Below, piece by piece: positions 21,457 to 30,357 of a stretch of DNA of 64,000 nt; the stretch's first letter is position 1, and each line of letters begins with the position of its first letter. The notes under the pieces were generated by a model. It ran no database searches. It saw only the letters and a program-made list of their open reading frames with translations, and was not told where the DNA came from. This DNA is from Eubacteriales bacterium (GTDB taxonomy: Bacteria > Bacillota > Clostridia > Oscillospirales > CAG-272): NCBI GenBank assembly GCA_045655185.1, contig JAZOOS010000026.1:9505-73504 (forward strand), given 5' to 3'. Made by a program: the position numbers and the translations under genes.

Positions 21457-21485
21457 TTGACGGCGAGTGATTTTTGATGTATAAT
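21457..21485 (+). promoter_or_regulatory. promoter of toxin cassette 1
   Basis: TTGACG, 17 nt, TATAAT. The same element is present upstream of cassettes 2 and 3. Confidence 0.65.
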
Positions 21486-21498
21486 AAAGGAGAATACG

Positions 21499-22040
21499 AT
21501 GAGCTCTGTTACAGAAGCGAATCCTTACGTTTTGGGAAACAGCAAAACGTGGAAGAATTGGCAAGCCAACTATAAAGAGCCGAGAACCTGCCTGCCGTGC
21601 GAAGATAAGCATGGGAAGATCTATCCTTTTCTTCAAGTTTAAAAATCCCCGAGCATCTGTTTTGTCGATGCGAAATTGTTCCAATGCGAACAAAACAAGT
21701 GGGGACAGCCACCGATAAAGGCTTTGGCTGGGCCGATGCTTGGTTGATGTATCGGGGCAGGTTGCCGGATTGTTATATTACAAAGAGAGATGCGCTGAAA
21801 ATGGGATGGAAATCTAACAAACAAAACTTGGCAGATGTTTGTCCGGAAAAGCTAATAGGAAATGTACCATATCGTAACTACGAGGGAAAACTTCCTATTA
21901 AGGCTGATCGAAGCTGGTATGAGGCAGATTTTGATTATATTGGCAACGATAGAGGGGCAAACAGAATTTTATATTCGAACGATGGCTTAATCTTTGTCAG
22001 CTACGATCATGCAAAAACTTTTTATGAATTAGTGAAATAA
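21499..22040 (+). pseudogene. mini-MuF - barnase-like RNase toxin, frameshifted (cassette 1)
   Basis: MSSVTEANPYVLGNSKTWKNWQANYKEPRTCLPCEDKHGKIYPF then TAA at 21640-21642. Relative to copies 2 and 3, one C is missing in TATCC(C)TTTT at about 21626. The shifted frame continues ...SSSLKIPEHLFCRCEIVPMRTKQVGT... through the full barnase-like domain (track ORF 21684..22040). Confidence 0.8.
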
Positions 22041-22052
22041 AGAGGTGACATT

Positions 22053-22373
22053 GTGCTGAACACATATAAATACAAAGTCGATTTTTCGGGCGTGGAGGAT
22101 TATTGGGATATCCACGGCATACTTAAAGAAAGCTTGAATTTTCCCGATTATTACGGCGGTCATTTGGACGCGCTTTTTGATTGCCTTACCGATATGCTTG
22201 GCGCCATTTCGATAATTGAAATACACGGAATAGAAAAACTTGAAAAGTATGACGGGTATGACAAAAGGGTGATTGATGTTTTTCGTGACGCAAAGCATGT
22301 TTATGATGAATTTTCCGACCGCTTCTTCGTTACGATCGTTCATGAGGACGGCACGCGCGAAGAAATCGTATAG
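22053..22373 (+). CDS. barstar-like immunity protein (cassette 1)
   Basis: 106 aa, GTG start. [27 protein letters not shown] matches the barstar [23 protein letters not shown] motif. Confidence 0.8.
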   Translation: [106 protein letters not shown]

Positions 22374-22397
22374 CGGAAAGGGATAGAAAAAACGAGG

Positions 22398-22428
22398 AAA
22401 AGAGCAGAACCGCGGTTCTGCTCTTTTT
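22398..22428. terminator. terminator palindrome family member (bidirectional, shared with XRE gene)
   Basis: AAAAGAGCAGAACC-GCGG-TTCTGCTCTTTTT. Confidence 0.75.
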
Positions 22429-22642
22429 ATTTATACCGTTGCTTCTCGTCGGTCTCGCCGAGAAGGTAGTCAACACTCGTACCGTAAAAGCGCGCAAGAC
22501 GAATGAGAATGGCGGTTGGAATATCATTTTCCCCGGTTTCGTATTTCGAATAGCCGGTTTGCGACATGCCCAGCATTTTCGCGATCTCGGTTTGATTCAT
22601 ATCAAGGTCCTCTCGCAGGTTCCGTATCCTTGGATATTTCAT
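22427..22642 (-). CDS. XRE family HTH transcriptional regulator
   Basis: 71 aa. IRNLREDLDMNQTEIAKMLGMSQTGYSKYETGENDIPTAILIRLARFYGTSVDYLLG. Confidence 0.85.
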   Translation of the reverse strand: MKYPRIRNLREDLDMNQTEIAKMLGMSQTGYSKYETGENDIPTAILIRLARFYGTSVDYLLGETDEKQRYK

Positions 22643-22682
22643 GCTTCACACTCCTGTAACAAGCTTATACTCATTATAGGAT

Positions 22683-22727
22683 AATCTGTTTCAGGCTATT
22701 GACTTTTAACCTTAAACAGGTTATAAT
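22683..22727 (+). promoter_or_regulatory. divergent promoter with two related operator-like sites
   Basis: TTGACT (22699-22704), 17 nt, TATAAT (22722-22727). AATCTGTTTCAGGCT (22683-22697) and AACCTTAAACAGGTT (22708-22722) are 25 bp apart; the second lies in the spacer. Confidence 0.55.
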
Positions 22728-22783
22728 TTTTCTTGAATATTTCTGCTTGCTTTCCTTCTTGCGGCTTTATGATGAGGTGAAAA

Positions 22784-29187: not shown

Positions 29188-29202
29188 AAAACGCCAATCG
29201 TA

Positions 29203-29235
29203 AAAAAGAGCAGAACCGAGGTTCTGCTCTTTTTA
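29203..29235. terminator. terminator palindrome family member
   Basis: AAAAAAGAGCAGAACC-GA-GGTTCTGCTCTTTTT. Confidence 0.7.
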
Positions 29236-29389
29236 CATCTATCCGCCGCGCGTTTTTTCTGCGGACGGCCGATGGCCGTTTCGTTGCGTTTTTCACCGTA
29301 GGGGCGAGCATCGCTCGTCCGCGCGAAACGGGCAAAGCGTTGTCCTCATTTGCGCCGAAATATGCGTTATAATAGGGGCGCAAGCCGAT

Positions 29390-29418
29390 TTGACGGCGAT
29401 CGATTTTTGATGTATAAT
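29390..29418 (+). promoter_or_regulatory. promoter of toxin cassette 3
   Basis: TTGACG (29390-29395), 17 nt, TATAAT (29413-29418). Confidence 0.65.
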
Positions 29419-29431
29419 AAAGGAGAATACG

Positions 29432-29974
29432 ATGAGCTCTGTTACAGAAGCGGATCCTTATGTTTTTGGAAACAGCAAAACGTGGAAGAATTGGCAAGCA
29501 AAATATAAAGAGCCGAGAACCTGCAAGCCGTGCGAGGATAAACATGGGAAGATCTATCCCTTTTCTTCAAGTTTAAAAATTCCCGAGCATTTGTTTTGCC
29601 GATGCGAAATTGTCCCGATGCGAACAAAGCAGGTGGGCACAGTAACCGACAAGGGCTTCGACGGCGCCGATGCTTGGTTGATGTATCGGGGCCGGTTGCC
29701 GGATTATTATGTTACGAAAGAAGAAGCGAAGGGGAAAGGGTTTCGCCGCAAAAAGCAAAACTTGGCAGATGTTCTTCCCGGTCAAATGATAGGGGGGGAT
29801 GAGTTTAGTAACGATCAAAGAAAATTGCCGGACGCACCAAACAGAAGATGGTACGAAGCCGATCTTGATTATACTTACGGAAAAAGAAATTTGAAAAGGA
29901 TTTTATATTCAAGTGACGGTTTGATTTTTGTAACGAAAGATCATTATCAAACATTTTACGAAGTAATAAAGTGA
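29432..29974 (+). CDS. mini-MuF - barnase-like RNase toxin (cassette 3)
   Basis: 180 aa. Closest of the three to Bacillus barnase: YVTKEEAKGKGF..KQNLADVLPGQMIGGDEFSNDQRKLPDAPNRRWYEADLDYTYGKRNLKRILYSSDGLIFVTKDHYQTFYEVIK. Confidence 0.85.
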   Translation: MSSVTEADPYVFGNSKTWKNWQAKYKEPRTCKPCEDKHGKIYPFSSSLKIPEHLFCRCEIVPMRTKQVGTVTDKGFDGADAWLMYRGRLPDYYVTKEEAKGKGFRRKKQNLADVLPGQMIGGDEFSNDQRKLPDAPNRRWYEADLDYTYGKRNLKRILYSSDGLIFVTKDHYQTFYEVIK

Positions 29975-29983
29975 GGGAAAGAG

Positions 29984-30301
29984 ATGGATAAATATGTTGT
30001 GGATTTTTCCGAAGTAACACATTACATCGAGATTCATGAAGCATTAAAGAAAGATTTGGATTTTCCCGATTATTACGGCGGGAACACCGATGCTTTATGG
30101 GATTGCTTGACCGATATGCTGGGCGATTCTTCGCATATTGAGCTTGTTGGCTTTGAAAAGGTAAAAGAACGCTATAAAAATGAATGGGAAGGCATCCTTC
30201 GAATTATGAAAAAAGCAAAGCATGCCTACGGCGGTAAATATGCAAACACATTTGTTGTCGTGTTAATACATGAGGACGGCACACGGGAAGAGATCCTATA
30301 A
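29984..30301 (+). CDS. barstar-like immunity protein (cassette 3)
   Basis: 105 aa. [27 protein letters not shown]. Confidence 0.85.
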   Translation: [105 protein letters not shown]

Positions 30302-30326
30302 TAAAAATTAACCGTGCCAACAAAAT

Positions 30327-30357
30327 AAAAAGAGCAGAAATTTCTTCTGCTCTTTTT
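30327..30357. terminator. terminator palindrome family member (bidirectional)
   Basis: AAAAAGAGCAGAA-ATTTC-TTCTGCTCTTTTT. Confidence 0.7.

What the first reader, a model, noticed from the sequence alone, without database searches (positions are those of the whole stretch)
21457..30357. Three stand-alone mini-MuF-barnase + barstar cassettes with conserved ends, a hypervariable core and their own promoter
Seen: three loci (21457-22428, 26392-27373, 29390-30357) share four features. (i) A perfect TTGACG-17nt-TATAAT promoter, an AGGAG RBS and the same start MSSVTEA. (ii) Roughly 290 nt of near-identical 5' coding sequence (...RTC(L/K)PCE.KHGKIYPF...IPEHLFCRCEIVPMRTKQVGT.TDKGF.GADAWLMYRGRLPD.Y.TK). 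(iii) A core that diverges strongly: GWKSNKQNLADVCPEKLIGNVPYRNYEGKLPIKADRSWYEADFDYIGNDRGANRILYS versus GWDYRKKNLAEKCPCKMIGGNIYRNDDLKLPTSPDREWREADFDFVSGKRNRKRILYS versus GFRRKKQNLADVLPGQMIGGDEFSNDQRKLPDAPNRRWYEADLDYTYGKRNLKRILYS. Most of the downstream 105-108 aa ORF diverges with it. (iv) Re-converging 3' ends (...HEDGTREEI[VL] stop) followed by the same terminator palindrome. Established knowledge: C..C...H..CRC is the C-terminal core of the Phage_Mu_F / SPP1 gp7 head-morphogenesis domain, which serves as the N-terminal carrier of prophage-encoded MuF polymorphic toxins. The C-terminal ~110 aa aligns end-to-end with Bacillus barnase (YITK.EA, NLADV.PG..IGGD.FSN, W.EAD, R..RILYS.D.LI..T.DHY.TF). 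The downstream ORF aligns with barstar (LP.[12 protein letters not shown]). Inference: these are independently transcribed short toxin/immunity cassettes built for exchange by recombination through their conserved ends. They retain only a ~60-aa MuF remnant, have no signal peptide, and no phage structural genes are visible in this window. Two questions are open. First, whether they act as intracellular TA/abortive-infection modules or as a reservoir of orphan modules for a full-length MuF toxin elsewhere. Second, whether the MuF remnant still targets them into a capsid-like particle.
Basis: partly seen in the sequence, partly recalled or inferred. Interest (0 to 1): 0.85.

Follow-up and report, generated by a model that had tools for sequence, protein, structure and literature searches.

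The report
Multi-copy barnase toxin and barstar immunity cassettes
A gut Clostridia chromosome carries three paralogous operons, each pairing a barnase-type RNase toxin (with a small zinc-knuckle derived from a phage head protein) with its barstar antidote; they belong to a widespread but uncharacterised family that looks like a strain-against-strain weapon whose delivery route is unknown.

Summary
The three cassettes are real, but copy 1's toxin is a pseudogene (1-nt frameshift plus G78W at an invariant residue); its barstar is intact. Toxin residues 75-177 match barnase (E 4e-31, catalytic residues kept). The downstream ORFs are barstars. Residues 20-63 match only the last ~45 positions of the MuF/SPP1-gp7 profiles, below threshold here, though relatives and fold matches support the homology.

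The 180-aa architecture is not a decayed remnant. At least 555 loci in Clostridia gut genomes carry it, nearly always followed by barstar, with no portal, terminase or capsid genes among 300 flanking ORFs. The N-domain was seen only with barnase. No full-length MuF-barnase donor was found.

The mosaic is real. Synonymous divergence is 0.18-0.40 at the 5' end and saturated in the core. The 3' "re-convergence" is mostly protein-level constraint, and the terminator is generic to this genome.

Syntenic relatives carry the same cassette types with lower dS than their flanking genes. One relative has an immunity-only array (B3, a fourth type, B2) where the toxins were deleted. This favours an intercellular toxin-immunity system over an intracellular TA module.

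Many species share a perfect TTGACA-17-TATAAT promoter abutting the Shine-Dalgarno sequence. Verdict: new variant of a known kind, moderate interest.

The parts
21435..21440 (+). Copy 1 upstream -10-like box (TATAAT; TGTTACAAT extended -10 in relatives); candidate upstream promoter giving an SD-containing leader
   Evidence: the column is conserved across 12 upstream regions from different genomes. No experimental support.
21457..21485 (+). Copy 1 TTGACG-17-TATAAT promoter-like site; -10 abuts the SD AAAGGAG (21486-21492)
   Evidence: 11/12 match. Searches show the same layout in about 34 of 86 family members.
21499..22040 (+). Copy 1 toxin pseudogene (T1): frameshift at 21625-21626, stop at 21640-21642, D77G/G78W; residual 118-aa ORF 21684-22040
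   Evidence: Intact orthologue in L090 (96% aa). The identical truncated product is on record from a 42.6-kb contig.
22053..22373 (+). Barstar B1 (106 aa, GTG start), intact
   Evidence: Pfam Barstar 57.3 bits. 98% identical to the orthologues in L090 and L091.
22398..22427 (.). Bidirectional hairpin terminator AAAAGAGCAGAACCGCGGTTCTGCTCTTTT
   Evidence: The same palindrome occurs at 4 other places in the window.
22427..22642 (-). XRE-family HTH gene convergent on copy 1
   Evidence: Pfam HTH_3 59.6 bits. A paralogous arrangement follows copy 3. Not a conserved partner family-wide (HTH_3 in 4/150 and 3/150 neighbours).
26370..26375 (+). Copy 2 upstream -10-like box
26392..26420 (+). Copy 2 TTGACG-17-TATAAT promoter-like site
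26434..26976 (+). Toxin T2, 180 aa: MuF-type Zn-knuckle (aa ~20-63), PMRTKQVGT linker, barnase domain (aa 75-178)
   Evidence: Pfam Ribonuclease 29.5 bits, Phage_Mu_F 20.2 bits. TIGR01641 30 bits. Orthologue in L091 is 93% identical.
26987..27313 (+). Barstar B2 (108 aa)
   Evidence: Pfam Barstar 45.7 bits. 94-96% orthologues in L090 (without a toxin) and L091.
27339..27372 (.). Hairpin terminator (same palindrome as copy 1)
29368..29373 (+). Copy 3 upstream -10-like box
29390..29418 (+). Copy 3 TTGACG-17-TATAAT promoter-like site
29432..29974 (+). Toxin T3, 180 aa: Zn-knuckle plus barnase domain
   Evidence: Pfam Ribonuclease 38.7 bits. Barnase PDB match E 4e-31 over aa 75-177, with K27, E73, R83, R87 and H102 conserved. 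AF2 model pLDDT 87, pTM 0.83.
29984..30301 (+). Barstar B3 (105 aa)
   Evidence: Pfam Barstar 70.6 bits. A 96% orthologue in L090 is driven by a promoter remnant, with the toxin deleted.
30327..30357 (.). Hairpin terminator, variant loop (AAAGAGCAGAAATTTCTTCTGCTCTTT)
30356..30616 (-). XRE-family HTH gene convergent on copy 3
   Evidence: Pfam HTH_3 51.6 bits

Best explanation
These are chromosomal toxin-immunity operons of a polymorphic, strain-discriminating RNase system.

Shown:
- Each operon encodes a cytoplasmic 180-aa protein. A barnase-type RNase domain is fused to, and predicted to pack against, a ~45-residue zinc-knuckle homologous to the C-terminal end of the phage MuF/SPP1-gp7 head protein.
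- A cognate barstar inhibitor gene follows each toxin gene.
- The cassettes come as discrete, old immunity types (T1/B1, T2/B2, T3/B3, and a fourth barstar in a relative). The types differ in the barnase segment equivalent to residues ~28-85 and across barstar.
- Within a genome, the promoter, N-domain and first barnase helix are kept nearly identical among paralogues by gene conversion.
- Between related genomes, whole cassettes are younger than their flanks.
- Toxins are repeatedly lost by frameshift, nonsense mutation or deletion while the barstars persist, giving immunity-only arrays.

Inferred:
- The toxin leaves the producer and enters related cells that lack the matching barstar, and kills them by RNA cleavage.
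- Extra barstars protect against neighbours' toxins.
- The N-domain tracks the host lineage and is the handle for the exit or entry step. The most plausible routes are binding to a portal or procapsid of a resident phage or phage-like particle, or release at phage-induced lysis.
- A consensus promoter abutting the SD, together with an upstream extended -10 box, probably sets a low toxin-to-immunity translation ratio.
For: Domain identities.

Family size and fixed architecture: 283 word-search hits, mostly 175-191 aa. At least 555 genome loci, all Clostridia. Barstar lies immediately downstream in about 75 of 80 loci.

MuF homology: the N-domain profile finds a bona fide full MuF protein at E 2.5e-7. 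Two relatives exceed the Pfam cutoff (35.2 and 30.9 bits). The best BFVD fold matches are phage head-morphogenesis or minor capsid proteins (48-54 aa aligned, rmsd 2.1-2.9 A).

Mosaic: dS is 0.18-0.40 in the N-domain and saturated in the core. The same pattern appears among three tandem cassettes in L050. Family-wide, N-domain and core distances are almost uncorrelated (rho 0.12).

Intercellular logic:
- Gene order is toxin then immunity.
- Extra orphan barstars occur in about 14 of 80 loci.
- The syntenic genome L090 carries B3 (96%), a fourth barstar and B2 (94%) with the toxin ORFs deleted down to a promoter remnant or the last 12 codons.
- At least 10 decayed toxins sit beside intact barstars: window c1, L013, L020, L035, L050, L060, L075, L089, L091 and L092.

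Lateral exchange: cassette dS is 0.10-0.26 against 0.36-0.72 for flanking genes. Orthologous cassettes are under purifying selection (dN/dS 0.02-0.17).

Occasional phage carriage next to lysis genes: L087 and L089.

Promoter layout.
Against: - No export signal, secretion system or phage head gene is linked to the cassettes. This holds in the window and among 300 flanking ORFs from about 60 genomes.
- Only 3 of 2.9 million viral contigs carry a relative.
- The N-domain keeps only ~40% of the MuF profile. It was found only with barnase, and AF2 predicts it to pack tightly against the RNase domain (pTM 0.83). It may therefore modulate the enzyme rather than act as a trafficking handle.
- No toxicity, immunity specificity, export or transcript data exist.
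- Positive selection on the core could not be tested because dS is saturated.
Confidence: 0.6

Rival explanations
1. Intracellular toxin-antitoxin or abortive-infection module. Barnase is held by barstar in the cytoplasm and is freed on phage infection or stress. The MuF-like knuckle might then act as a sensor or decoy for an incoming phage's portal or head proteins.
For: - No signal peptide and no linked secretion or phage genes.
- Small two-gene operons dispersed in chromosomes and variable islands, sometimes beside XRE regulators, integrases or S24 peptidases.
- A phage-protein-like domain could plausibly sense phage assembly.
Against: - Gene order is toxin-first.
- Pfam finds only the Barstar domain in these proteins, so no DNA-binding domain was detected. 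From general knowledge of the Bacillus protein, not tested here, barstar is a stable, very tight inhibitor rather than a labile antitoxin.
- No PADLOC model matches the toxin or barstar.
- Immunity-only arrays of several divergent barstars (L090, L063), and retention of barstars after toxin loss, are hard to explain without exposure to exogenous toxins.
Confidence: 0.2
2. Ordinary secreted or lysis-released nutritional RNase (as barnase is in Bacillus) with a housekeeping barstar. On this view the multiple copies are simple duplications and the N-domain is a folding or regulatory appendage.
For: Very close similarity to Bacillus barnase (about 50% identity, E 4e-31). The N-domain is found only with barnase and is predicted to form one globular unit with it.
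Against: - No signal peptide.
- Discrete co-varying toxin and barstar types, orphan barstar arrays, lateral cassette exchange and concerted evolution of the 5' ends are hallmarks of conflict systems, not of a scavenging enzyme.
Confidence: 0.07
3. Silent reservoir of orphan toxin-immunity modules that recombine into a full-length prophage MuF toxin elsewhere in the genome.
For: Conserved 5' homology block and a MuF-type junction. Orphan modules are a known feature of CDI, Rhs and Maf systems (Zhang et al. 2012, PMC3482391).
Against: - Each copy has a consensus promoter, SD, ATG and a complete N-domain.
- The 180-aa form is the norm at >=555 loci.
- The window holds no other MuF-like ORF.
- A chimeric full-MuF+barnase query returned full-length MuF toxins only with other C-domains and a different junction.
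- An IMG/VR scan with N-domain patterns found nothing.
Confidence: 0.03

Closest known systems
Barnase-barstar of Bacillus amyloliquefaciens (PF00545 / PF01337; PDB 1A2P, 1BRS)
   Same: The toxin's aa 75-177 align with barnase 6-108 (E 4e-31), with K27, E73, R83, R87 and H102 kept. The downstream protein is a barstar with the YYG..[8 protein letters not shown] interface helix.
   Different: - There is no Sec signal peptide.
- There is an extra N-terminal Zn-knuckle.
- Toxin and inhibitor are co-transcribed, toxin first.
- There are multiple divergent paralogous pairs per genome and orphan barstars.
- Recognition-loop and interface residues are varied (R59 becomes D or Y; barstar D35Y in B2 and W38F in B1).
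MuF polymorphic toxins of temperate phages (Jamet et al. 2017, PMC5576092; Zhang et al. 2012, PMC3482391, which lists Tox-Barnase/Imm-Barstar among MuF-trafficked toxins)
   Same: A MuF-type C..C...H..CRC element lies directly N-terminal to a C-terminal toxin of at least 100 aa. A small immunity ORF follows. The host range is Firmicutes.
   Different: - Only the last ~45 residues of the MuF domain are present, whereas MuF toxins are about 380-500 aa with the whole domain.
- The genes are not in a portal-terminase-capsid module and are mostly not in prophages.
- The N-domain is tied to a single toxin fold.
Orphan immunity and toxin-immunity islands of CDI/Rhs/Maf-type polymorphic toxin systems
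   Same: Conserved 5' region with a variable toxin tip and immunity gene. Arrays of orphan immunity genes. Toxin decay with immunity retention. Lateral exchange of modules.
   Different: There is no large stalk or secretion domain. Every module is a complete promoter-bearing gene. Variation is allelic within one toxin fold rather than replacement by unrelated toxin domains.

Membership tests
Barnase / microbial RNase (Pfam PF00545) | Profile match above the curated cutoff | tested here: met
   29.5, 38.7 and 42.1 bits against a cutoff of 24. phmmer against barnase chains gives E 4e-31.
Barnase / microbial RNase (Pfam PF00545) | Catalytic and phosphate-binding residues (barnase K27, E73, R83, R87, H102) | tested here: met
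   All are conserved in T1, T2 and T3 by alignment. E142, R152, R156 and H171 are invariant in 58 homologues.
Barnase / microbial RNase (Pfam PF00545) | RNase activity | not testable with these tools
   Needs an enzyme assay.
Barstar (Pfam PF01337) | Profile match above the cutoff, and the interface helix (Y29, D35, W38, D39) | tested here: met
   45.7-70.6 bits against 23.4. B3 keeps all four residues. B1 has W38F and B2 has D35Y (alignment).
Barstar (Pfam PF01337) | Specific inhibition of the adjacent RNase | not testable with these tools
   Needs co-expression and binding assays.
MuF / SPP1 gp7 head-morphogenesis domain (PF04233, TIGR01641) | Match to the domain profile above the curated cutoff, over most of its length | tested here: not met
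   PF04233 gives 20.2-21 bits against 29.6, covering profile positions 68-111 of 112. TIGR01641 gives 27-30 bits against 39.65, covering positions 65-108 of 109. Two relatives pass (35.2 and 30.9 bits), but also only over the last ~45 positions.
MuF / SPP1 gp7 head-morphogenesis domain (PF04233, TIGR01641) | Gene sits in a phage DNA-packaging and head module next to portal and terminase | tested here: not met
   No such genes in the window or in 300 flanking ORFs of relatives.
MuF polymorphic toxins (Jamet 2017) | Complete N-terminal MuF domain plus a C-terminal toxin of at least 100 aa and a small downstream immunity ORF, encoded by a temperate phage | tested here: not met
   The toxin extension and immunity ORF are present. 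The complete MuF domain and the prophage context are absent.
Polymorphic toxin systems in the broad sense (Zhang 2012) | Conserved N-terminal part, variable C-terminal toxin with a matching immunity gene downstream, and orphan immunity genes | tested here: met
   The variation is within one toxin fold only.
Polymorphic toxin systems in the broad sense (Zhang 2012) | Identifiable trafficking or secretion route | tested here: inconclusive
   There is no signal peptide and no linked apparatus. The MuF-like knuckle is the only lead.
Type II toxin-antitoxin modules | Antitoxin-first operon with a labile, usually DNA-binding antitoxin | tested here: not met
   The toxin gene is first, and the barstars have no other Pfam domain. 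Lability is not testable here.
Known anti-phage defence systems (PADLOC-DB 2.0) | Match to a defence-system protein model | tested here: not met
   No hits for the toxin or barstar. Only generic HTH matches for the XRE genes.

The most novel reading that the evidence does not exclude
Chromosomal mini-MuF toxins are capsid hitch-hikers. The ~45-residue Zn-knuckle would be the minimal portal- or procapsid-binding element of MuF. It would load a host-encoded, strain-specific RNase into the heads of whatever MuF-type prophage or phage-like particle the cell produces. Every burst would then inject the toxin into related cells, and immunity-only barstar arrays in sister genomes would be the counter-measure. 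The lineage-tracking, concertedly evolving N-domain would be matched to the resident particle's portal.
Probability: 0.2. Interest if true: 0.8.

Novelty: new variant of a known kind. Interest (0 to 1): 0.5.

Why it matters
Barnase-barstar is a textbook protein pair, and MuF toxins are a proposed but still unproven route of phage-mediated toxin delivery. This family strips the MuF carrier down to a ~45-residue zinc-knuckle and moves it out of prophages into ordinary chromosomal sites, across hundreds of uncultured gut Clostridia.

If the knuckle still directs the toxin into particles, it defines the minimal capsid-targeting signal and a new way for host genes to exploit phages. If it does not, it is a new regulatory or targeting appendage of a classic RNase.

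Either way, the discrete immunity types, the immunity-only arrays and the lateral exchange point to strain-level warfare in Oscillospiraceae-type gut bacteria, where almost nothing is known experimentally.

The promoter-abutting-SD layout, conserved across species, is a testable device for setting the toxin-to-immunity ratio.

Tried and rejected
- Word-index search with the 75-aa N-domain alone found only one truncated protein. It was replaced by a full HMM scan.
- Rfam scan of 21-31 kb: nothing near any gathering score.
- RNAalifold on 12 upstream regions: no conserved pairs, so the upstream conservation is at DNA and promoter level.
- Foldseek of the N-domain model against the PDB: no match.
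- PADLOC: no defence model for the toxin or barstar.
The scan with the 9-sequence alignment gave no confirmed relative.
- Internal start at Met63 (PMRTK) as a genuine 118-aa isoform: rejected. No SD precedes it. The 118-aa database entries examined arise from upstream lesions (frameshift in c1; TGC->TGA in L092) or from contig truncation (L019). In L020 a TGG->TGA change upstream gives the same 118-aa residual ORF in my own ORF call.
- Programmed frameshift or shared hotspot: rejected. The lesions differ in position and kind.
- XRE gene as a conserved partner: rejected (HTH_3 in 7 of 300 neighbours).
- Terminator palindrome as a cassette recombination site: rejected as cassette-specific.
- Positive selection on the core: not assessable because dS is saturated. 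Orthologous cassettes show purifying selection.
- Exact look-up of the 118-aa window ORF found no record, although an identical sequence is listed as a cluster member.

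
Full report
**Observation**

Three paralogous cassettes lie at 21457-22428 (c1), 26392-27373 (c2) and 29390-30357 (c3). Repeat finding and a three-way alignment give the following picture.
- A 5' block runs from about 75 nt upstream of the ATG to about codon 94. 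It is 82-100% identical, with a 100% stretch between c2 and c3 just before the break.
- Identity then drops abruptly to 45-60%.
- It partly recovers over the RILYS.DGLIF segment and the barstar interface helix.
- A short similar 3' end follows.

Each cassette has TTGACG-17-TATAAT (11/12 match), then AAAGGAG, then ATG.

CC at 21625-21626 replaces CCC, and TAA follows at 21640-21642. This leaves a 47-aa fragment and a 118-aa ORF starting at the internal Met of PMRTK. c1 also carries D77G/G78W, and G78 is invariant in 58 homologues. The identical truncated product is on record from a 42.6-kb contig, whereas the contig on record for this window's own toxin is 74 kb. That suggests a second assembly and argues against a sequencing artefact, but it is not proof.

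The shared terminator palindrome also occurs at 23143, 25960, 29206 and 50364, so it is a generic terminator of this genome. c3's hairpin has a different loop.

**Domain identities**

- Pfam Ribonuclease scores 29.5-42.1 bits (cutoff 24) and Barstar scores 45.7-70.6 bits (cutoff 23.4).
- T3 residues 75-177 align with barnase residues 6-108 at E 4e-31. K27, E73, R83, R87 and H102 are conserved in all three copies.
- The N-terminal ~70 aa match only the last ~45 positions of the MuF profiles. PF04233 gives 20-21 bits (cutoff 29.6). TIGR01641 gives 27-30 bits (cutoff 39.65). These are sub-threshold partial matches.

The homology is nevertheless credible for three reasons.
- A profile of nine N-domains, scanned over 1.84 billion representatives, finds a bona fide full MuF protein (P0269) at E 2.5e-7, aligning NW...TC..C...HGKIY...H..CRC..VP.
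- Two relatives exceed the Pfam cutoff.
- The AF2 model (pLDDT 87, pTM 0.83) has phage 'head morphogenesis' and 'minor capsid' proteins as its best BFVD matches, with 48-54 residues aligned at 2.1-2.9 A. The E-values are weak.

No solved structure resembles the N-domain. C31, C34, H53 and C58 are invariant, which fits a zinc site. That is an inference.

**The family**

- The 180-aa architecture is the norm, not a remnant. A word search gave 283 hits, mostly 175-191 aa.
- At least 555 loci were found in one-genome-per-species contigs. All are Clostridia, mainly Oscillospiraceae, Acutalibacteraceae and Ruminococcus-type gut MAGs, plus Muriventricola aceti.
- Barstar follows immediately in about 75 of 80 loci.
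- About 14 loci have extra orphan barstars, up to three.
- Several loci have 2-4 toxin copies.
- Among 44 N-domain hits of at least 130 aa, every one shown in the alignment that carries a C-terminal extension continues into barnase. The domain is therefore tied to one toxin fold.
- Sources name these proteins 'hypothetical protein' or 'uncharacterized protein with gpF-like domain'.

**Context**

- The window's neighbours are a Na/Ala symporter, a MerR/DUF1836 regulator, an SPFH protein, an LRR_5 lipoprotein, MatE and XRE regulators.
- No portal, terminase or capsid family appears anywhere in the window. A serine recombinase and a ParB gene lie 30 kb away.
- Of 300 ORFs flanking relatives in about 60 genomes, no family exceeds 5 of 150 on either side, and none among the 25 most frequent families is a phage structural family.
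- Only 3 of 2.9 million viral contigs carry a relative. In L087 the gene sits at the end of the late region, after the capsid, tail, holin and amidase genes. In L089 a degraded toxin plus a barstar follow the endolysin.
- A chimeric query (full MuF plus T3 barnase) recovered many full-length MuF toxins, but only with other C-terminal domains and a different junction.
- An IMG/VR scan with N-domain patterns found nothing.

The 'orphan reservoir for a full-length MuF toxin' reading is therefore not supported.

**Evolutionary signals**

Within the window:
- Synonymous divergence is 0.18-0.40 in the N-domain and first barnase helix, and saturated in the core. The mosaic therefore reflects different histories (gene conversion or module import), not merely different constraint.
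- The toxin's last 25 codons and most of the barstar 3' end are conserved at the protein level while dS exceeds 1.6. That is purifying selection. Only c1 and c2 share a 63-nt, 94% tract.

In other genomes:
- The same 5'-conserved, core-variable pattern recurs among three tandem cassettes in L050.
- Family-wide, the N-domain is more divergent (mean p-distance 0.60) than the core (0.41). The two distances are almost uncorrelated (rho 0.12). 5' conservation is thus a within-genome, concerted-evolution feature.

Two syntenic genomes, L090 and L091, have flanks 82-91% identical to the window. They are decisive.
- Site A lies between the symporter and MerR. It holds T1/B1 in all three genomes. T1 is intact in L090, frameshifted in the window, and carries a 9-aa deletion of the guanine-recognition loop in L091. 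B1 is 98% identical throughout.
- Site B lies between the SPFH gene and MatE. The window has T2B2-LRR-T3B3. L091 has T2B2.
- L090's site B holds three elements: a promoter remnant fused to B3 (96%), a fourth barstar type, and the last 12 codons of T2 followed by B2 (94%). This is an immunity-only array made by deleting the toxins.
- Cassette dS (T1 0.10-0.13; B1 0.16-0.19; B2 and B3 about 0.24-0.26) is below that of the flanking genes (0.36-0.72). This indicates lateral exchange after the lineages split. T2 against L091 (0.36) is the exception and is comparable to the least-diverged flanking genes.
- dN/dS of 0.02-0.17 shows that each type is a stable allele.

At least ten toxins across the sampled loci are inactivated by different lesions while the adjacent barstar is intact.

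**Regulation (sequence inference only)**

- In about 34 of 86 family members from many species, a perfect TTGACA-17-TATAAT ends 11-13 nt before the ATG, with the SD directly abutting the -10 box.
- Transcription starting about 7 nt after the -10 would begin inside or after the SD. That yields a 6-7-nt SD-less leader for the toxin, while barstar keeps its own SD.
- A second conserved box lies about 45 nt upstream (TGTTACAAT, an extended -10; cgtTATAAT in the window). It could give an SD-containing transcript.
- A perfect 12-nt palindrome, CAAATCGATTTG, overlaps the -35 in seven of the twelve aligned upstream regions from relatives. It is imperfect in the window (AAACCGATTT).
- No RNA structure or Rfam family explains the conservation.

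**Interpretation**

The components are a barnase-type toxin and its barstar. The population pattern fits a polymorphic, intercellular toxin-immunity system better than an intracellular TA/Abi module or a scavenging RNase. That pattern comprises toxin-first order, discrete co-inherited types, orphan and immunity-only arrays, toxin decay with immunity retention, and lateral exchange.

The unresolved step is delivery. There is no signal peptide and no linked apparatus. The only lead is the MuF-derived knuckle. In SPP1, the MuF protein gp7 is targeted to the procapsid by binding the portal (PMC6316719). MuF-toxin fusions are proposed to be injected with phage DNA (PMC5576092, PMC3482391). Against a simple 'handle' role, the knuckle is restricted to barnase and is predicted to pack tightly against it.

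**Comparison with known systems, and novelty**

Zhang et al. 2012 already list Tox-Barnase/Imm-Barstar among MuF-associated toxins. Jamet et al. 2017 define MuF toxins as full-domain, prophage-encoded proteins.

In the literature I searched I found no description of four things:
- a ~45-residue mini-MuF form that is chromosomal and mostly outside prophages;
- its restriction to barnase;
- the immunity-only arrays;
- the conserved promoter-SD layout.

This is a new variant of a known kind. Interest is moderate (0.5). It rises if capsid hitch-hiking is demonstrated.

Noticed in passing
window 26073-26294: Two perfect tandem copies of a 111-nt unit lie in the intergenic region upstream of cassette 2. 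Related copies (74-87% identity) flank the cassettes in the syntenic genomes L090 and L091. This may be a lineage-specific intergenic repeat or MITE-like element.
   Followed up: partly
window 21260-21400, 26295-26360, 29260-29330: GC-rich hairpin repeats (e.g. GGGGCGACCATTGGTCGTCCGC, GGGCGAGCATCGCTCGTCC) sit just upstream of each cassette's conserved block. They translate into spurious ORFs with '...APFTQGSL...' and '...IGRP...' motifs. They look like REP-type intergenic elements. No role was tested.
   Followed up: no
window 22427-23131 and 30356-31822: Cassettes 1 and 3 are each followed by a convergent XRE gene and, further on, a small membrane protein ending in a CPCC...CP.CHQLIEWPS zinc-ribbon (22784-23131 and 31412-31822). 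The 3' 111 nt of these are 83% identical (repeat D8). This indicates a larger segmental duplication.
   Followed up: partly
L090 9816-10635: In the syntenic relative, the XRE gene after the immunity-only barstar array is followed by a Lipoprotein_Ltp family gene. From memory, the Ltp family is named after a prophage lipoprotein said to act in superinfection exclusion; I did not check this. If so, it could be relevant should the toxins arrive by phage-like injection.
   Followed up: no
window 59727-62664: A large serine recombinase (Resolvase + Recombinase + Zn_ribbon_recom + DUF4368) and a ParB_N protein lie on the minus strand, about 30 kb from the cassettes. They probably mark the edge of an integrative element.
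   Followed up: partly
window 16625-17092: A cluster of five tRNA genes (Cys, Gly, Phe, Asp, Val) lies on the minus strand.
   Followed up: no
L001-L004, downstream of the toxin-barstar pair (e.g. L001 11255-15848): In another species the cassette is followed by DUF3885, DUF2716, DMP19 and Fic genes, and by LRR proteins. By recollection, not checked here, some of these families occur in polymorphic-toxin immunity islands.
   Followed up: no
L089 5415-7391 and L087 8553-9098: These are two of the three viral-contig relatives found. In L089 a degraded toxin plus an intact barstar lie directly after the endolysin and holin of a prophage-like contig. In L087 an intact mini-MuF-barnase lies at the end of a phage late region.
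   Followed up: partly
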